From the NCBI RefSeq assembly GCF_003334335.1, contig NZ_QOWQ01000002.1: a stretch of DNA of 64,000 nucleotides, one strand, 5' to 3'. How positions within the stretch are numbered: the first letter of the stretch is position 1; every line of letters begins with the position of its first letter. The notes beneath the pieces were generated by a model, which was given only the letters and a program-made list of their open reading frames with translations, did not search any database and had not been told where the DNA came from. Below are positions 16,107-23,702 of the stretch, one piece after another. The DNA comes from Escherichia coli (GTDB lineage Bacteria > Pseudomonadota > Gammaproteobacteria > Enterobacterales > Enterobacteriaceae). A program made the position numbers and the translations under genes.

Positions 16107-17048
16107 ATGCGCGAAAAGGATTATGTCGTAATTATAGGTTCGGCGAATATTGATGTCGCCGGATATTCACATGAATCATTAAATTATGCGGATTCAAATC
16201 CAGGTAAAATAAAATTTACGCCTGGTGGAGTAGGGCGCAATATTGCACAAAACCTGGCGTTGCTGGGTAACAAAGCCTGGCTACTGAGCGCCGTAGGCAG
16301 TGATTTTTATGGTCAATCGCTGCTAACGCAAACCAATCAATCTGGCGTTTATGTCGATAAATGCCTGATTGTGCCGGGAGAAAATACGTCGAGTTATTTA
16401 TCATTACTCGATAATACCGGTGAAATGCTGGTTGCTATAAATGACATGAATATTAGCAACGCTATTACAGCTGAATATCTCGCACAGCACGGTGAATTTA
16501 TTCAGAGGGCAAAGGTCATTGTCGCGGACTGTAATATCAGTGAAGAGGCACTGGCATGGATTCTGGATAATGCCGCCAACGTACCCGTATTTGTCGATCC
16601 GGTTTCGGCATGGAAATGTGTCAAAGTGCGCGACCGTCTAAATCAGATCCACACTCTCAAGCCAAACCGCCTTGAAGCGGAAACCCTGAGTGGGATTGCG
16701 CTGTCAGGGCGTGAAGATGTGGCAAAAGTTGCTGCCTGGTTCCATCAACATGGCCTGAACCGACTGGTATTGAGCATGGGCGGCGACGGCGTTTATTACA
16801 GCGATATCAGCGGTGAAAGTGGCTGGTCTGCGCCGATCAAAACCAATGTTATTAATGTTACCGGAGCGGGCGATGCCATGATGGCGGGACTTGCTTCGTG
16901 TTGGGTAGACGGAATGCCGTTTGCCGAATCTGTTCGTTTCGCACAGGGATGTTCGTCAATGGCGCTCTCCTGTGAATACACCAATAACCCCGATTTATCG
17001 ATTGCCAACGTTATATCGTTAGTGGAGAACGCAGAATGTCTGAATTAA
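16107..17048 (+). CDS. psuK: Pseudouridine kinase PsuK (YeiC), PfkB family
   Basis: 313 aa PfkB-type kinase (GAGDAMMAG); synteny with psuG. Confidence 0.9.
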   Translation: MREKDYVVIIGSANIDVAGYSHESLNYADSNPGKIKFTPGGVGRNIAQNLALLGNKAWLLSAVGSDFYGQSLLTQTNQSGVYVDKCLIVPGENTSSYLSLLDNTGEMLVAINDMNISNAITAEYLAQHGEFIQRAKVIVADCNISEEALAWILDNAANVPVFVDPVSAWKCVKVRDRLNQIHTLKPNRLEAETLSGIALSGREDVAKVAAWFHQHGLNRLVLSMGGDGVYYSDISGESGWSAPIKTNVINVTGAGDAMMAGLASCWVDGMPFAESVRFAQGCSSMALSCEYTNNPDLSIANVISLVENAECLN

Positions 17049-17974
17049 AAATTTCCCCTGAATTATTACAAATTTCCCCGGAAGTGCAGGACGCTTTAAA
17101 AAACAAAAAACCGGTTGTGGCGCTGGAATCGACCATTATTTCTCACGGGATGCCGTTCCCACAAAATGCCCAGACCGCAATTGAAGTTGAAGAAACTATT
17201 CGTAAACAGGGCGCTGTACCTGCCACGATCGCCATTATTGGCGGCGTGATGAAAGTGGGGTTAAGCAAAGAAGAAATTGAATTACTGGGTCGTGAAGGGC
17301 ATAACGTGACCAAAGTTAGTCGTCGCGATTTACCTTTTGTTGTTGCCGCCGGAAAAAATGGCGCAACCACTGTGGCTTCAACGATGATTATTGCGGCGCT
17401 TGCCGGAATTAAAGTATTTGCCACCGGGGGAATTGGTGGTGTGCATCGCGGGGCGGAACATACCTTCGATATTTCTGCCGATTTGCAAGAACTGGCAAAT
17501 ACTAATGTCACCGTTGTTTGTGCCGGGGCGAAATCTATTCTCGATTTAGGATTAACCACTGAGTATTTAGAAACCTTCGGTGTGCCGTTAATTGGCTATC
17601 AGACTAAAGCGCTGCCTGCGTTTTTCTGCCGCACCAGCCCGTTTGACGTCAGCATTCGTCTCGACAGCGCCAGCGAAATTGCCCGTGCAATGGCGGTGAA
17701 ATGGCAAAGCGGTCTGAACGGTGGCCTCGTGGTAGCGAACCCGATCCCGGAACAGTTTGCTATGCCGGAACACACTATCAATGCGGCGATCGATCAGGCG
17801 GTAGCTGAAGCTGAAGCTCAGGGAGTCATTGGTAAAGAAAGTACGCCATTCCTGCTGGCGCGCGTTGCTGAACTGACCGGCGGTGACAGCCTGAAATCCA
17901 ACATCCAGCTGGTGTTCAACAACGCCATTCTGGCGAGCGAAATTGCCAAAGAATATCAGCGTCTCGCGGGTTAA
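17036..17974 (+). CDS. psuG: Pseudouridine-5'-phosphate glycosidase PsuG (YeiN)
   Basis: 312 aa; overlaps psuK stop; synteny. Confidence 0.9.
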   Translation: MSELKISPELLQISPEVQDALKNKKPVVALESTIISHGMPFPQNAQTAIEVEETIRKQGAVPATIAIIGGVMKVGLSKEEIELLGREGHNVTKVSRRDLPFVVAAGKNGATTVASTMIIAALAGIKVFATGGIGGVHRGAEHTFDISADLQELANTNVTVVCAGAKSILDLGLTTEYLETFGVPLIGYQTKALPAFFCRTSPFDVSIRLDSASEIARAMAVKWQSGLNGGLVVANPIPEQFAMPEHTINAAIDQAVAEAEAQGVIGKESTPFLLARVAELTGGDSLKSNIQLVFNNAILASEIAKEYQRLAG

Positions 17975-18067
17975 TTTCTGACGGGCAGAAAGCCGTCGCC
18001 CGTACTCATCAAGCATACCAAAACCTGGCGCTGACGCCGGGTTTACCGGCATGAAGGGAAAATCATT

Positions 18068-19317
18068 ATGGATATAATGAGAAGTGTTGTGGGGATGGTG
18101 GTGTTACTGGCAATAGCATTTCTGTTGTCAGTGAATAAAAAGAGCATCAGTTTGCGCACGGTTGGAGCCGCACTGCTGCTGCAAATCGCTATTGGTGGCA
18201 TCATGCTCTACTTCCCACCGGGAAAATGGGCAGTAGAACAGGCGGCATTAGGCGTTCATAAAGTGATGTCTTACAGTGATGCCGGTAGCGCCTTCATTTT
18301 TGGTTCGCTGGTTGGGCCGAAAATGGATGTCCTGTTTGACGGTGCGGGTTTTATCTTCGCCTTTCGCGTACTTCCGGCGATTATTTTCGTTACTGCGCTC
18401 ATCAGTCTGCTGTACTACATTGGCGTGATGGGGCTGCTGATTCGCATCCTTGGCAGCATTTTCCAGAAAGCCCTCAACATCAGCAAAATCGAATCTTTTG
18501 TTGCGGTTACTACTATTTTCCTCGGGCAAAATGAGATCCCGGCGATCGTTAAACCGTTTATCGATCGCATGAATCGCAACGAGTTGTTTACCGCAATTTG
18601 TAGCGGGATGGCGTCCATTGCTGGTTCGATGATGATTGGTTATGCCGGAATGGGCGTACCAATTGACTACCTGTTAGCGGCATCGCTGATGGCGATCCCT
18701 GGCGGGATTTTGTTTGCACGTATTCTTAGCCCGGCAACCGAGCCTTCGCAGGTCACATTTGAAAATCTGTCGTTCAGCGAAACGCCGCCAAAAAGCTTTA
18801 TCGAAGCGGCGGCGAGCGGTGCGATGACCGGGCTAAAAATCGCCGCGGTGTGGCGACGGTGGTAATGGCGTTTGTCGCAATTATTGCGCTGATCAACGGC
18901 ATTATCGGCGGAATTGGCGGCTGGTTTGGTTTCGCCAATGCCTCTCTGGAAAGTATTTTTGGCTATGTGCTGGCACCGCTGGCGTGGATCATGGGTGTGG
19001 ACTGGAGTGATGCCAATCTTGCGGGTAGCCTGATTGGGCAGAAACTGGCGATTAACGAATTCGTCGCTTACCTGAGTTTCTCCCCATACCTGCAAACGGG
19101 CGGCACGCTGGAAGTGAAAACCATTGCGATTATCTCCTTTGCGCTTTGTGGTTTTGCTAACTTTGGTTCTATCGGTGTTGTCGTTGGCGCATTTTCGGCT
19201 ATTTCGCCAAAACGCGCGCCGGAAATCGCCCAGCTTGGTTTACGGGCGCTGGCAGCAGCAACGCTTTCCAACCTGATGAGTGCGACTATTGCCGGGTTCT
19301 TTATTGGTCTGGCGTAA
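18068..19317 (+). pseudogene. psuT: Nucleoside transporter PsuT (YeiM, CNT family), frameshifted into 265-aa and 155-aa pieces
   Basis: Track ORFs 18068..18865 and 18850..19317 are consecutive frames of one CNT transporter; alignment with intact paralog nupX (21257..22507) shows one missing G in gccgcggtgtgg vs gccgcaggtgtgg near 18847. Confidence 0.65.
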
Positions 19318-19324
19318 TGCTCGA

Positions 19325-19373
19325 TTTGTAGACCGGATAAAACGTATTAAGCGTTGCATCCGGCAATCGCGCT
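19325..19373. repeat. REP (repetitive extragenic palindromic) element
   Basis: gtagaccggataaaacgtattaagcgttgcatccggca. Confidence 0.6.
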
Positions 19374-19387
19374 ATTGAAAATAATTT

Positions 19388-20047
19388 TTACTGCATCATC
19401 CCGGAGAATTTATTCTCCGGGTCCATCTCCAGCGCCAGTCCTGACAACTGCTTTCTGTTTTTAATGAGATACCCTTTCTTGCTTTTAATTAATAAACCGT
19501 CGTGAATGAACTGCGCGAGAACATATAAAAGATGTCGATAAGAAACGCCTAAATACTCTGCCGCTTGCGTATGCTTTTCGTGATAAAGATCACCTTCCTG
19601 CGAGAGTAATATAAATGCTGCCAGGCGATTCACTAACGGAAATGATTGATTCTGAGTTAAAGAAACAATATTACGATAATTTTTATGACTTAAGGTGACG
19701 CAGAGTTTTCGTAAAAATAGCGTGTCGTTTAATAACAGCGGACGGTAATGTTTCATAGGGAGCGCAAGGCACCAACACTCTTCAATAGCCTGCACCGCAC
19801 GCGGTTCATGGTCTTTATCGATTAACTCAATCTCGCCAATAAAACAGGGGGCGGCAAAGAAATCGATCAGCGACACGCGACCATTAGCTAGCGTGGCGTA
19901 AAGCCTGGCGCGGCCTCGCGTCAGGTAAAACAGCCAGGACGGCTGTTGCCCTTCCTGCACAATGTAGTCACGCGCTAAAAAATGAAACAGCCGCGTATCG
20001 GCTGAAACATCCGTTAAAAAGCAATCCTTAAACGCGGATTCACTCAT
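19388..20047 (-). CDS. yeiL: CRP/FNR-family transcriptional regulator YeiL
   Basis: ORF 19388..20086; likely start at internal Met (~219 aa); cNMP-binding fold plus C-terminal HTH. Confidence 0.85.
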
Positions 20048-20215: not shown

Positions 20216-21157
20216 ATGGAAAAGAGAAAAATTATTCTGGATTGTGATCCGGGTCATGATGATGCTATTGCTATAATGATGGCGGCGAAACATCCGGCAA
20301 TAGATTTATTAGGCATCACTATTGTAGCGGGTAATCAGACGCTTGATAAAACATTAATTAATGGCCTGAATGTTTGCCAGAAACTGGAGATTAATGTTCC
20401 GGTTTATGCGGGGATGCCGCAGCCCATTATGCGTCAACAAATCGTTGCCGATAATATTCACGGTGAAACCGGACTGGATGGCCCGGTATTCGAGCCGCTG
20501 ACCCGCCAGGCAGAAAGCACTCATGCGGTGAAATATATCATTGATACCCTGATGGCAAGCGATGGCGATATCACTCTGGTGCCGGTTGGTCCGCTTTCAA
20601 ATATCGCGGTGGCAATGCGTATGCAACCCGCGATCCTGCCCAAAATCCGTGAAATTGTGCTAATGGGCGGCGCTTACGGTACAGGCAACTTCACGCCATC
20701 TGCCGAGTTCAACATCTTTGCCGACCCGGAAGCCGCACGCGTAGTGTTCACCTCCGGCGTTCCATTAGTGATGATGGGCCTCGATCTCACCAACCAGACC
20801 GTTTGCACCCCGGACGTGATTGCTCGGATGGAAAGGGCAGGCGGCCCCGCCGGAGAGCTGTTCAGCGACATCATGAACTTCACTCTCAAAACGCAGTTCG
20901 AAAACTACGGCCTTGCTGGCGGCCCGGTGCACGACGCCACCTGCATCGGTTATCTGATTAACCCTGATGGCATTAAAACCCAGGAGATGTACGTCGAAGT
21001 GGACGTCAACAGTGGCCCTTGCTATGGGCGTACCGTCTGCGACGAGCTGGGCGTTCTTGGCAAGCCCGCCAATACCAAAGTCGGCATCACTATTGATACA
21101 GACTGGTTCTGGGGATTAGTCGAAGAGTGCGTGCGCGGCTACATCAAAACCCATTAA
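20216..21157 (+). CDS. rihB: Pyrimidine-specific ribonucleoside hydrolase RihB
   Basis: 313 aa; IU-nucleoside hydrolase signature DCDPGHDDA. Confidence 0.92.
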
Positions 21158-21256
21158 GTGTTGATAACAAGCCGGGCCGGTATCGCAAGATGCAGGCCTG
21201 GCTATTTCTGATGGGCAGAAAGCCGTCGCCCAATATGACATGAAGAGATAATCACT

Positions 21257-22507
21257 ATGGATGTCATGAGAAGTGTTCTGGGAATGGTGGTATTGCTGAC
21301 GATTGCGTTTTTACTGTCAGTAAACAAGAAGAAGATCAGCCTGCGTACCGTTGGCGCGGCGTTAGTGTTACAGGTCGTGATTGGCGGCATTATGCTTTGG
21401 TTACCGCCAGGGCGTTGGGTCGCTGAAAAAGTCGCTTTTGGCGTGCATAAAGTGATGGCGTACAGCGACGCGGGTAGCGCATTTATCTTCGGTTCTCTGG
21501 TCGGACCGAAAATGGATACCTTATTTGATGGTGCAGGATTTATCTTTGGTTTCAGGGTGTTACCGGCAATTATCTTCGTCACCGCGCTGGTGAGTATTCT
21601 CTACTACATCGGTGTGATGGGGATTTTAATTCGAATTCTCGGCGGTATCTTCCAGAAAGCATTAAATATCAGCAAGATCGAGTCATTCGTCGCGGTCACC
21701 ACCATTTTCCTCGGGCAAAACGAAATTCCGGCAATCGTCAAACCCTTTATCGATCGTCTGAATCGCAATGAATTATTTACAGCGATTTGTAGTGGCATGG
21801 CCTCGATTGCTGGTTCGACAATGATTGGTTACGCCGCACTGGGCGTGCCTGTGGAATATCTGCTGGCGGCATCATTAATGGCGATCCCTGGCGGGATCTT
21901 GTTTGCCCGCCTGTTAAGCCCGGCAACGGAATCTTCGCAGGTTTCCTTTAATAACCTCTCTTTCACCGAAACACCGCCAAAAAGCATTATTGAAGCCGCT
22001 GCGACAGGGGCAATGACCGGGCTGAAAATCGCCGCAGGTGTGGCAACAGTGGTGATGGCATTTGTTGCAATAATTGCGTTGATTAACGGTATTATCGGCG
22101 GCGTTGGTGGCTGGTTTGGTTTTGAACATGCCTCGCTGGAGTCCATTTTAGGTTACCTGCTGGCTCCACTGGCGTGGGTGATGGGTGTGGACTGGAGTGA
22201 TGCGAATCTTGCCGGGAGTTTGATTGGACAGAAACTGGCAATAAATGAATTTGTCGCTTATCTCAATTTCTCACCCTATCTGCAAACGGCTGGCACTCTC
22301 GATGCTAAAACTGTGGCGATTATTTCCTTCGCGTTGTGCGGTTTCGCTAACTTTGGTTCTATCGGGGTGGTGGTGGGGGCGTTTTCTGCGGTTGCGCCAC
22401 ACCGTGCGCCGGAAATCGCCCAGCTTGGTTTACGGGCGCTGGCGGCGGCGACGCTTTCCAACTTGATGAGTGCGACCATTGCCGGGTTCTTTATTGGTTT
22501 AGCTTGA
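21257..22507 (+). CDS. nupX: Nucleoside permease NupX (CNT family)
   Basis: 416 aa; intact paralog of psuT. Confidence 0.92.
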   Translation: MDVMRSVLGMVVLLTIAFLLSVNKKKISLRTVGAALVLQVVIGGIMLWLPPGRWVAEKVAFGVHKVMAYSDAGSAFIFGSLVGPKMDTLFDGAGFIFGFRVLPAIIFVTALVSILYYIGVMGILIRILGGIFQKALNISKIESFVAVTTIFLGQNEIPAIVKPFIDRLNRNELFTAICSGMASIAGSTMIGYAALGVPVEYLLAASLMAIPGGILFARLLSPATESSQVSFNNLSFTETPPKSIIEAAATGAMTGLKIAAGVATVVMAFVAIIALINGIIGGVGGWFGFEHASLESILGYLLAPLAWVMGVDWSDANLAGSLIGQKLAINEFVAYLNFSPYLQTAGTLDAKTVAIISFALCGFANFGSIGVVVGAFSAVAPHRAPEIAQLGLRALAAATLSNLMSATIAGFFIGLA

Positions 22508-22515
22508 GTGTCATT

Positions 22516-22610
22516 GCCTGATGCGCAAGCTTATCAGGCCTACATTTACTTGCTGAAATTGCCTGATTTGTAGGCCGGATAAGACGCGTTAAGCGTCGCA
22601 TCCGGCAACA
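22516..22610. repeat. REP elements (two units)
   Basis: gcctgatgcgcaagcttatcaggcctaca and gtaggccggataagacgcgttaagcgtcgcatccggca. Confidence 0.65.
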
Positions 22611-22613
22611 TTG

Positions 22614-23702
22614 TTACACCATTGGCACTAATGAAAGCGCGTTATCGGCAGACAGGGTAGGGTTGTTTAAGCTGCCGCTGGCGCGCGAAATTGCCGCGCA
22701 GGCTACCGCAAAACGGGCGCTGTCGCGGAAACTGTATCCTTCAAGAAAGCTATATACCAGGCCCGCCATAAAACCATCGTCAGCACCAAAACTGTCTACT
22801 GTCGTATGCGCTGGCGCGGTCAGCAAAAATTGTTCTCCATCCTTTTCGCTGCAATAAACTGACTCATCGGGCAAATAAACAAACAGTTGCTGAACACCTT
22901 GCTGATGCAATGCATTCACTGCGGTATTACGGTCAGCATCGCTGGTGATCGCCTGTCCCCATAAAATTTCCAGCTCCGGTAAAGTGGGTTTCAGGGTGTG
23001 AATATGCGCCAGCCAGTGTTTGATTTTGCCCGCTTTGAATTCTGAAACGGTATCGACAAACACCGGGATTTCATCAGCGAGGGTAAAGACCCATTCCAGC
23101 GCCTCGGCTGTCAGGTTGCAATCAGCCAGTACCACGCCCGCATGACGAAGTAAATCGCGCGACCCGTTCAGTAGTTGCGGTGTCAACTGTTCCAGCAGAT
23201 GGGTATCGTTAATCGCCAGCACGGTTTGATCGTCTCGATTGGCAATTGCCAGATACGTCGATGTGCTTTGACCATGCAAACGAACGCAGCCGGAGACATT
23301 CACGCCGGCACGGCGCGTTTCTTCCAGGAGCATTTCGCCATAAAAGTCATCGCCAATCACTGAAAGCAAATGGACGTCACGGCCTAACAGCGCCAGATTG
23401 TGGGCGATGTTGCGTCCCACGCCGCCCGCTGAGCAATGAATTGTACCGGGATGAGAAGCCGATTGCGGGTAACGGATATCCGCCATCCCGCGAATATCCA
23501 TATTGATTGTCCCCACCACTACGCAGTATTCCTGCTCGGTGAGAATGTAACCTTTGCCTTTAATCCGGCCTTTGCGCATTAAATCCATAATATGCGCCGC
23601 AACGCGCGAACGGCTGATTTGCAGCATGTCCGCAATTTCGTTCTGCTGAATCAGCGGGTTACGCCGTAAAATTGCAAGGATCTCCTTTTCCCGGTTATTC
23701 AT
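22614..23702 (-). CDS. yeiI: HTH-domain sugar/nucleoside kinase YeiI (PfkB family)
   Basis: 362 aa; N-terminal HTH plus PfkB kinase domain. Confidence 0.88.
   Translation of the reverse strand: MNNREKEILAILRRNPLIQQNEIADMLQISRSRVAAHIMDLMRKGRIKGKGYILTEQEYCVVVGTINMDIRGMADIRYPQSASHPGTIHCSAGGVGRNIAHNLALLGRDVHLLSVIGDDFYGEMLLEETRRAGVNVSGCVRLHGQSTSTYLAIANRDDQTVLAINDTHLLEQLTPQLLNGSRDLLRHAGVVLADCNLTAEALEWVFTLADEIPVFVDTVSEFKAGKIKHWLAHIHTLKPTLPELEILWGQAITSDADRNTAVNALHQQGVQQLFVYLPDESVYCSEKDGEQFLLTAPAHTTVDSFGADDGFMAGLVYSFLEGYSFRDSARFAVACAAISRASGSLNNPTLSADNALSLVPMV

What the first reader, a model, noticed from the sequence alone, without database searches (positions are those of the whole stretch)
17974..18001. 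Near-identical 28-nt leader motif upstream of both CNT-family transporters
atttctgacgggcagaaagccgtcgccc (17974-18001, upstream of psuT) and atttctgatgggcagaaagccgtcgccc (21204-21231, upstream of nupX) are 27/28 identical, while the adjacent intergenic sequence diverges. The psuT leader carries ~40 extra bases before the conserved catgaag...tatggat start context. Conservation of a non-coding block after duplication suggests a shared cis element such as an attenuator hairpin (gacgg...ccgtc) or a regulator or sRNA target controlling both nucleoside transporters.
Basis: seen in the sequence. Interest (0 to 1): 0.4.

Follow-up and report, generated by a model that had tools for sequence, protein, structure and literature searches.

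The report
Conserved stem-loop before nucleoside transporter genes
The repeated 28-base block is real; its core is a 19-base hairpin-forming sequence kept almost unchanged in front of the PsuT/NupX nucleoside transporter genes in many enteric bacteria, so it is probably an undescribed RNA control element whose partner and effect are still unknown.

Summary
The window is E. coli K-12-like and holds two copies, 27/28 identical, with none expected by chance. The motif is in 5,425 of 5,426 complete E. coli genomes, about two places per genome, so it is not a dispersed repeat.

The conserved unit is a 19-nt core, GGGCAG-NNN-GC-N-GTCGCCC. It occurs upstream of nearly every PsuT/NupX ortholog sampled across about ten genera, including 31 metagenome loci selected only by their coding-sequence start. 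Fifteen of 19 core columns are at least 90% conserved, against 0 of 16 flanking columns.

GGGC pairs with GCCC, and one or two outer pairs covary (C-G, U-A, U.G; G-C to A-U in Leclercia). They close an 11-nt loop with invariant G6, G10, G13 and U14. RNAalifold predicts this hairpin independently.

The paralogs diverged before the genera did, so the core is under purifying selection. The extra identity in E. coli looks like local homogenisation.

There is no Rfam match and no literature. Tests for ops/RfaH, sigma-54, an intrinsic terminator and a classical attenuator all fail.

My best reading, at moderate confidence, is a sense-strand RNA operator hairpin for an unidentified trans-acting factor that controls the transporter cistron.

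The parts
17974..18001 (+). It consists of the Escherichia-specific flank ATTTCTGAC (17974-17982) and the 19-nt conserved core (17983-18001).
21204..21231 (+). It consists of the flank ATTTCTGAT (21204-21212) and the core (21213-21231).
17981..18003 (+). H1 stem-loop of the psuT leader: ACGGGC - AGAAAGCCGTC - GCCCGT. The stem is 6 bp and the loop 11 nt. ViennaRNA also allows a bulged A5 plus pairs G6-C15 and A7-U14. The isolated hairpin folds at -10.0 kcal/mol.
   Evidence: (centroid structure). Covariance model R1 scores it 40.9 bits.
21212..21232 (+). H1 stem-loop of the nupX leader: TGGGC - AGAAAGCCGTC - GCCCA. The outer pair is U-A here, where psuT has C-G. The isolated hairpin folds at -8.3 kcal/mol.
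   Evidence: (centroid structure). R1 scores it 35.6 bits.
18004..18019 (+). C/A-rich, G-poor linker (ACTCATCAAGCATACC). The ATCARAC...TACC block is conserved in many leaders but deleted in several (L114, L126, K-12 nupX), so it is dispensable.
   Evidence: Alignment.
18020..18044 (+). H2: AAAACCTGGCG-CTGA-CGCCGGGTTT. It is a terminator-like hairpin (-15.2 kcal/mol) with only 3 U after the stem. It is present in all psuT-type leaders that carry H1 and in a few nupX-type leaders (L085, L161). It is absent from E. coli nupX, apparently lost by deletion between CCTGGC direct repeats. This accounts for the roughly 40 extra bases.
   Evidence: The terminator scan does not call it.
21170..21203 (+). 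H0: AGCCGGGCC-N16-GGCCTGGCT, a hairpin directly after rihB. Every nupX-type leader has a hairpin at this place, but with unrelated sequence.
18050..18073 (+). Shared ribosome-binding and start context CATGAAGGGAAAATCATTATGGAT of psuT.
21239..21262 (+). Shared ribosome-binding and start context CATGAAGAGATAATCACTATGGAT of nupX.
17036..17974 (+). psuG (pseudouridine-5'-phosphate glycosidase). Its stop codon lies 6 nt before the H1 stem.
18068..19317 (+). psuT (CNT-family nucleoside transporter). In this window it carries a private 1-nt deletion near 18847.
20216..21157 (+). rihB (ribosylpyrimidine nucleosidase), the gene upstream of nupX.
21257..22507 (+). nupX (CNT-family nucleoside transporter).

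Best explanation
The element is a small stem-loop, here called H1, in the sense-strand mRNA. It sits in the intercistronic leader directly upstream of the transporter cistron, between psuG and psuT and between rihB and nupX.

A G+C-rich stem (GGGC/GCCC plus one or two covarying outer pairs) presents an 11-nt loop, A-G-H-N-W-G-C-N-G-U-C. The near-invariant loop bases are read sequence-specifically by a trans-acting factor. I consider a protein the most likely factor and an sRNA less likely.

Binding would set translation, stability or read-through of the transporter cistron independently of the upstream enzyme genes. The same signal would then reach both paralogous transporters.

Shown here:
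- the conservation of the core;
- the pairing and its covariation;
- the exclusive association with these genes;
- the independence from the distance to the ribosome-binding site and from hairpin H2.

Inferred, not shown:
- that the element acts as RNA rather than DNA;
- that a trans-acting factor exists;
- the direction of the effect.
For: 1. Deep conservation. The core GGGCAG-NNN-GC-N-GTCGCCC is found upstream of the transporter gene in Escherichia, Citrobacter, Enterobacter, Leclercia, Klebsiella, Kluyvera, Buttiauxella, Superficieibacter and Entomohabitans. All 31 metagenome orthologs selected only by a pattern in the coding-sequence start have it where their upstream sequence is available (30 of 31; L165 is cut). 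Fifteen of 19 core columns are at least 90% conserved, against 0 of 16 flanking columns.

2. Ancient duplication. On a protein tree the psuT-type genes form one clade nested among nupX-type genes, and E. coli PsuT and NupX each group with their own type. The duplication therefore predates the genera, and both lineages kept H1 while four-fold sites fell to 47% identity.

3. Pairing. Cells are 91.9% paired, and no shuffle out of 500 reached the observed pairing or covariation score. The pair at -1/+1 is C-G in 26 leaders, U-A in 5 and U.G in 2. The pair G1-C19 becomes A-U in Leclercia, and G3.U17 occurs in L195. On the tree the C-G/U-A states need at least three independent switches. E. coli alleles at positions -2,-1 are AC, GC and GT, and all keep pairing through G.U.

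4. Independent prediction. RNAalifold predicts the same hairpin. It is stable in every genus tested, at -7.5 to -10.5 kcal/mol.

5. Sequence-specific loop. Loop bases G6, G10, G13 and U14 are invariant, and A5, C11 and C15 are at least 91% conserved. The loops of the neighbouring hairpins H2 and H0 vary freely.

6. Specificity. There are only two copies in the window (PWM 34 and 30 bits, next best below 10; covariance model). There are no credible hits beside 72 more distant CNT genes. E. coli genomes hold about two places each.

7. Position. In K-12 nupX the element ends only 25 nt before the ATG, so it must lie inside the mRNA leader. No second operator-like copy exists in the promoter regions of the locus.
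Against: - There is no experimental evidence. These operons are barely expressed in the published E. coli data sets. No 5' or 3' ends and no RIL-seq chimeras were found for these genes in the supplements that could be searched.
- No candidate binding factor is known.
- Four stem pairs are nearly invariant and so say nothing about pairing. The covariation rests on the two outer pairs and one Leclercia event. The -2/+2 pair is unpaired in 15 of 35 leaders.
- Wobble versus A.C mismatches favour the sense strand only weakly, about 3 lineages against 1.
- One leader, Entomohabitans psuT, has replaced H1 with an unrelated 13-bp hairpin at the same place. Serratia and Hafnia orthologs carry yet another long hairpin. 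This fits a purely structural role.
- The distance to the ribosome-binding site varies between genera (H1 core starts 44 to 87 nt before the ATG), which argues against simple occlusion of the ribosome-binding site.
Confidence: 0.4

Rival explanations
1. H1 is a purely structural mRNA hairpin. It would act as an intercistronic stability or processing barrier, or as an RNA-polymerase pause hairpin, setting the ratio of enzyme to transporter. No sequence-specific partner would exist, and the sequence conservation would be incidental.
For: Hairpins of unrelated sequence occupy the same place in the Entomohabitans psuT leader and in Serratia and Hafnia leaders. The leaders consist of a series of hairpins, H0, H1 and H2. 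In psuT-type leaders H1 begins 6-11 nt after the psuG stop codon.
Against: Structural hairpins drift in sequence, and H0 differs completely between genera. H1, in contrast, keeps 15 of 19 positions, including 7 of 11 loop positions, in two paralogous lineages over a span in which four-fold sites are nearly saturated.
Confidence: 0.2
2. The element is a double-stranded DNA operator for a transcription factor, for example the neighbouring YeiL or YeiI. The factor would act as a roadblock or as an internal control site in front of the transporter gene.
For: The element has GC-rich inverted ends (CGGGC-N11-GCCCG) and high information content. Uncharacterised regulators yeiL and yeiI are nearly always adjacent. 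No binding motif is known for YeiL.
Against: The interior is not symmetric: GGGCAGnnnGC is not mirrored by GCnGTCGCCC. No related site exists in the psuK or yeiL-rihB promoter regions. The site lies after the enzyme genes and, in K-12 nupX, 25 nt from the ATG. In one genome the two copies differ at the outer positions while staying complementary (C-G versus U-A). Buttiauxella and K. spallanzanii lack yeiI next to nupX.
Confidence: 0.15
3. The conserved bases are the pairing site for a trans-encoded sRNA, for example GUCGCCC(G) or (C)GGGCAG. The hairpin would only present or mask this site.
For: Two uninterrupted invariant runs of 6-8 nt exist. Two transporter mRNAs share the site, as is typical for an sRNA regulon.
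Against: Both runs are inside the stem arms, so they are sequestered. No RIL-seq chimeras for these genes appear in the searchable supplements, although expression is low. An sRNA would not explain the compensatory changes.
Confidence: 0.1
4. One reading: a ribosome-coupled or alternative-hairpin transcription attenuator that uses gacgg...ccgtc together with the downstream hairpin.
For: In E. coli the minimum-free-energy fold does use GACGG/CCGUC. H2 is terminator-like and follows H1 in psuT leaders. H1 starts just after the psuG stop codon.
Against: The gacgg/ccgtc helix is 63% paired across leaders and has no compensatory change. H2 is missing from most nupX leaders while H1 is kept. With the 5' arm of H1 masked, H2 still forms at full stability and no antiterminator appears. 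No leader ORF is conserved, and TAA or TGA falls in the only plausible frame in many genera. H2 has only 3 U and fails the terminator scan.
Confidence: 0.05

Closest known systems
Protein-binding RNA operator hairpins (MS2/PP7 coat-protein operators, lambda boxB, the ThrRS operator)
   Same: A short G+C-rich stem presents a loop whose bases are conserved. A possible bulged A lies below the loop. Function would depend on both the fold and the loop sequence.
   Different: No binding protein is known. The 11-nt loop sequence matches none of these operators. This is a resemblance recalled from memory, not tested here.
Intercistronic stabiliser or processing hairpins in polycistronic mRNAs (the malE-malF REP, papB-papA)
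   Same: The element lies between cistrons of an operon, ahead of a membrane-protein gene, and is flanked by other hairpins.
   Different: Those elements tolerate sequence drift or are dispersed repeats. H1 is sequence-invariant and occurs only at these two loci.
Classical transcription attenuators (trp, his, pyrBI)
   Same: In psuT leaders a hairpin is followed by a terminator-like hairpin, close to a stop codon.
   Different: There is no conserved leader peptide and no predicted antiterminator. H1 persists where the terminator-like hairpin has been lost.
ops element / RfaH recruitment site (GGCGGTAGnnTG)
   Same: G10 C11 . G13 T14 . G16 C17 matches ops G2 C3 . G5 T6 . G8 C9. G10...C19-G20 fits the G-10 Y-1 G+1 pause pattern.
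   Different: E. coli has C at the positions equivalent to ops G4 and A7, and lacks T11-G12. G4C and A7T substitutions abolish RfaH recruitment (PMC5995543).
PyrR binding loop of Firmicutes pyrimidine and transporter operons
   Same: It is a leader RNA hairpin in front of pyrimidine-related transport genes. A purine-rich CAGARAG-like stretch is present.
   Different: No Rfam match appears even at E<=10. From my own knowledge, E. coli has no PyrR.

Membership tests
Any Rfam 15 family | A covariance-model match at or near the family's gathering score | tested here: not met
   At E<=10 the only overlapping hit is isrJ, at 18.9 bits against a gathering score of 37 (E = 7.1).
Dispersed repeat (REP/BIME-like) | Many copies per genome, unrelated to particular genes | tested here: not met
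   a median of 2 places per E. coli genome and at most 3; two copies in the window.
ops / RfaH site | GGCGGTAGnnTG, with G4, G5, A7 and G8 required for recruitment and T11-G12 for the pause | tested here: not met
   E. coli H1 reads GCCGTCGCCC, with C at the G4 and A7 positions and CC/CG instead of TG. The requirements come (PMC5995543).
Intrinsic (Rho-independent) terminator | A G+C-rich hairpin followed immediately by a run of U | tested here: not met
   H1 is followed by GUACUCAUC or AAUAUGAC. The scan lists neither H1 nor H2. H2 has only UUU.
Ribosome-mediated attenuator | A conserved leader peptide ORF | tested here: not met
   The frames across H1 have no conserved start, and many genera have TAA or TGA at core positions 7-9.
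Ribosome-mediated attenuator | Mutually exclusive terminator and antiterminator pairings | tested here: not met
   masking the 5' arm of H1 leaves H2 intact at -15.2 kcal/mol; no conserved long-range partner was found.
Sigma-54 promoter | GG and GC separated by exactly 10 nt (TGGCAC-N5-TTGC) | tested here: not met
   Read directly from the sequence. GG at core positions 2-3 and GC at 10-11 are separated by 6 nt, and GC at 16-17 by 12 nt. There is no register with N10.
CsrA binding site | A GGA motif in the hairpin loop | tested here: not met
   The loop AGNNNGCNGUC has no conserved GGA.
Structured cis-regulatory RNA hairpin (generic) | A helix supported by compensatory substitutions across species | tested here: met
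   (C-G/U-A/U.G at -1/+1, G-C to A-U at 1/19, no shuffle out of 500 as high). (independent RNAalifold prediction).
Structured cis-regulatory RNA hairpin (generic) | A demonstrated effect on expression of the downstream gene | not testable with these tools
   This needs reporter fusions and mutants.
Riboswitch | A ligand-binding aptamer with a conserved multi-helix or pseudoknot core | tested here: inconclusive
   Only one 21-23-nt hairpin is conserved. No conserved partner for the loop was found. Ligand binding cannot be tested here.

The most novel reading that the evidence does not exclude
H1 is the operator of a dedicated, still unidentified RNA-binding regulator, or of a small ligand acting on a minimal aptamer. 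This partner would couple uptake of pseudouridine and pyrimidine nucleosides by PsuT and NupX to a common signal. That would be a post-transcriptional regulon for nucleoside transporters in Enterobacteriaceae that has gone unnoticed in E. coli K-12.
Probability: 0.3. Interest if true: 0.6.

Novelty: new member of a known kind. Interest (0 to 1): 0.4.

Why it matters
PsuT and NupX are among the least understood transporters of E. coli, and nothing is known about how they are regulated. This sharply defined 19-nt element was preserved in two paralogous leaders since before the enteric genera split. It gives a concrete handle for finding the signal and the factor that control pseudouridine and pyrimidine-nucleoside uptake: mutate it, pull proteins down with it, or probe it. 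It would also add a new small RNA motif to the catalogue for the best-studied bacterium. If it turns out to be only a stability hairpin, the practical gain is small.

Tried and rejected
- **Rfam scan at E<=10.** Nothing was found.
- **Coding hypothesis.** The variable core positions 7-9, 12 and 15 look like codon positions in the frame GGG CAG NNN GCN GTC GCC. I rejected this because many genera have TAA or TGA at positions 7-9 and there is no conserved start.
- **uORF starting at the ATG of 'gATGGGC' in some nupX leaders.** Its lengths and frames are not conserved.
- **Sigma-54, KOPS (GGGNAGGG), the sigma-28 -10 element, CRP/FNR-type and LysR-type dyads.** Spacing or symmetry is wrong. These were compared directly with the sequence, using consensus sequences from my own knowledge.
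- **ops/RfaH.** The element fails at essential positions.
- **Pseudoknot or long-range partner for the loop.** No conserved complementary site was found between -200 and +250.
- **Loop GUC pairing with the downstream AUCAGAC block.** That block is deleted in several leaders, and it shows no covariation with core position 12.
- **Antiterminator model.** Not supported by folding.
- **3'UTR-derived sRNA made of H1, linker and H2.** The would-be seed, the linker, is the least conserved part, and the U-tail is only 3 nt.
- **More distant CNT loci.** 72 loci gave no credible covariance-model hit.
- **Literature.** I searched for psuT, nupX, yeiM, yeiJ, yeiL and yeiI, and searched Term-seq and RIL-seq supplements. 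There is nothing on this leader. One paper id was not held.

Full report
**What is there**

The window is E. coli K-12-like. It reads fruBKA - psuK - psuG - psuT, then yeiL on the minus strand, then rihB - nupX. They are 27/28 identical, they are the only matches in the window at up to 3 mismatches, and none is expected by chance. The psuT copy begins on the last base of the psuG stop codon and ends 66 nt before the psuT ATG. The nupX copy ends 25 nt before the nupX ATG. The roughly 40 extra bases in the psuT leader are therefore real.

**Is it more than chance or shared ancestry?**

PsuT and NupX are 88% identical as proteins, but only 52% at third codon positions and 47% at four-fold sites. 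An unconstrained non-coding stretch of the same age should be scrambled. A few equally identical 28-nt stretches exist inside the coding sequences, so the paralog comparison alone cannot separate selection from gene conversion. I therefore collected orthologous leaders.

**Cross-species evidence**

The leaders came from three sources:
- a scan of species-representative genomes;
- seven contig look-ups;
- a metagenome scan with a pattern taken from the start of the coding sequence, which does not condition on the leader.

Together these gave about 40 distinct leaders from Escherichia, Citrobacter, Enterobacter, Leclercia, Klebsiella, Kluyvera, Buttiauxella, Superficieibacter, Entomohabitans and unnamed metagenome lineages. 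All but one contain the 19-nt core GGGCAG-NNN-GC-N-GTCGCCC, starting 44-87 nt upstream of the ATG.

In 35 distinct 35-nt segments, 15 of 19 core columns are at least 90% conserved. None of the 16 flanking columns reaches that level. Only core positions 7-9 and 12 vary freely.

A protein tree places the psuT-type genes (those following psuG) as one clade nested among nupX-type genes (those following rihB). E. coli PsuT and NupX each group with their own type. The duplication is therefore older than the genera, and both lineages have kept the core.

**Structure**

GGGC pairs with GCCC, and the one or two bases outside the core on each side are usually complementary.
- For the 6-pair helix, 91.9% of cells are paired. 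None of 500 shuffles reaches the observed pairing or covariation score, and the slid controls drop to 30-54% paired.
- The pair at -1/+1 is C-G in 26 leaders, U-A in 5 and U.G in 2.
- G1-C19 becomes A-U in Leclercia, and one lineage has G3.U17.
- Mapped on the tree, the C-G/U-A states need at least three independent switches.
- Within E. coli, the alleles AC, GC and GT at positions -2,-1 all keep pairing through G.U wobbles.
- RNAalifold, run without guidance on 15 psuT-type leaders, predicts the same hairpin.
- The isolated hairpin folds at -7.5 to -10.5 kcal/mol in every genus tested.

It can form only in Escherichia. There it does compete with H1, and it is even used in the minimum-free-energy fold.

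**Surroundings**

In psuT-type leaders H1 starts 6-11 nt after the psuG stop codon. After H1 come:
- a C/A-rich linker that is prone to insertions and deletions;
- a conserved terminator-like hairpin, H2 (AAAACCUGGCG-N4-CGCCGGGUUU, -15.2 kcal/mol);
- the ribosome-binding site.

H2 is also present in a few nupX-type leaders. Most nupX-type leaders have lost it, apparently by deletion between CCTGGC direct repeats. This explains the shorter E. coli nupX leader.

In nupX-type leaders H1 is preceded by a hairpin, H0, whose sequence differs completely between genera. H1 is thus the only non-coding element in the leader, apart from the start context, that is conserved in sequence. Its function depends neither on H2 nor on the distance to the ribosome-binding site.

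**Specificity**

A position weight matrix (PWM) gives 34 and 30 bits for the two copies and less than 10 bits for anything else in the window. A covariance model gives 40.9 and 35.6 bits for the two copies. It finds nothing credible in 72 loci around more distant CNT genes and only the expected leaders in the metagenome loci. In 5,426 complete E. coli genomes the motif is present in 5,425, with a median of 2 places and at most 3. It is not a dispersed repeat.

**Why E. coli shows 27/28 rather than about 15/19**

In Kluyvera, which also has both paralogs, the two H1 copies differ at the variable positions (TCT/G versus TGA/A, and C15 versus A15) and in their flanks. In E. coli the copies also share the variable positions (AAA at 7-9, C at 12) and 8 of 9 flank bases.

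The extra identity is therefore specific to Escherichia. The most likely cause is a short gene-conversion or homogenisation event. Joint selection for the Escherichia-only alternative pairings (UUUCUG/CAGAAA and GAYGG/CCGUC) is the other possibility. This point is an inference.

**What it is not**

- It matches no Rfam family.
- It is not an intrinsic terminator, because no U-run follows it.
- It is not a classical attenuator. No leader ORF is conserved, and masking the 5' arm of H1 leaves H2 unchanged.
- It is not a sigma-54 promoter, because the spacing is wrong.
- It is not a CsrA site.
- It is not an ops site. Six positions coincide with ops, but E. coli carries the G4C-type and A7-type differences, and such substitutions abolish RfaH recruitment (PMC5995543).
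- It is not protein-coding, because stop codons fall in the only plausible frame.
- I found nothing in the literature on this leader, and no transcript ends or RNA-RNA chimeras in the searchable supplements. These operons are poorly expressed in laboratory conditions, so this absence says little.

**Most likely mechanism (confidence about 0.4)**

H1 most likely acts as a sense-strand RNA operator hairpin. The stem presents an 11-nt loop whose invariant bases (G6, G10, C11, G13, U14) are read by a trans-acting factor, probably a protein. The factor would set translation, stability or read-through of the transporter cistron separately from the upstream enzyme genes, and would do so in parallel for both paralogs.

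The evidence establishes the conservation, the pairing, the gene association and the independence from H2 and from spacing. It does not establish that the element acts as RNA, that a factor exists, or in which direction expression is affected.

**Rivals**

- A structure-only stability, processing or pause hairpin (0.2). It is supported by the unrelated hairpins at the same place in Entomohabitans psuT and in Serratia and Hafnia. The invariant loop argues against it.
- A duplex-DNA operator for YeiL, YeiI or another factor (0.15). The asymmetric interior, the absence of a promoter copy, and the copies in one genome that differ while staying complementary argue against it.
- An sRNA target (0.1).

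**Verdict**

The element appears to be undescribed. It is a new small leader motif of a familiar general kind, and its interest is moderate because its function is still open.

Noticed in passing
window 18847 (psuT 18068-19317): psuT carries a 1-nt deletion relative to E. coli C600. This splits it into ORFs of 265 and 155 aa. None of 5,426 complete E. coli genomes has this allele (best match 98.5%), so it is either a private mutation or a sequencing error in the source.
   Followed up: yes
window 19331-19418 and 22573-22620: REP/BIME-like palindromic repeats follow both transporter genes. They give weak, sub-threshold naRNA4 hits on both strands.
   Followed up: no
window 21170-21203; L013, L082, L084, L135, L137, L154, L202: Every nupX-type leader has a stable hairpin directly after rihB. 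Its sequence is unrelated between genera, so structure is conserved but sequence is not.
   Followed up: partly
L212 2597-2708 (Entomohabitans psuG-psuT spacer): This is the only leader without the H1 core. An unrelated 13-bp hairpin, GCGCTGTTCCCGG-N8-CCGGGAAACAGCGC, sits at the same position. The nupX leader of the same genome keeps H1.
   Followed up: partly
L008, L010, L011, L012 (Serratia, Hafnia; about 73% identical transporter): These leaders are different. They carry a long conserved hairpin CCTGAAAGGTGG...CCCTTTCAGG and a conserved block TTCCTTAAGTTTTATCC upstream of it. This may be another regulatory design for the same operon.
   Followed up: no
L207 (E. coli Nissle 1917) and L208 (strain 13C1065T): In Nissle, nupX is reduced to a 66-nt stub and psuG is annotated as frameshifted, yet both leaders with H1 remain. 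In 13C1065T an IS1 element replaces the segment from psuG to the 5' part of rihB. The locus is decaying in some lineages.
   Followed up: partly
window 15594 and 17694: There are two single-base differences from C600. One is a synonymous CTA/CTG change in fruA. The other is GCG (Ala) versus GTG (Val) in psuG.
   Followed up: partly
window 17588-18052, minus strand: A 154-aa antisense ORF starts at the CAT of the psuT ribosome-binding region and runs back through H1 into psuG. The nupX locus has no counterpart, so it is probably spurious.
   Followed up: partly
K-12 coordinate 2255672 (inside psuG), from PMC5493296: A genomic SELEX study lists a binding peak for RpoS holoenzyme inside psuG. I did not map its position relative to H1.
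   Followed up: no
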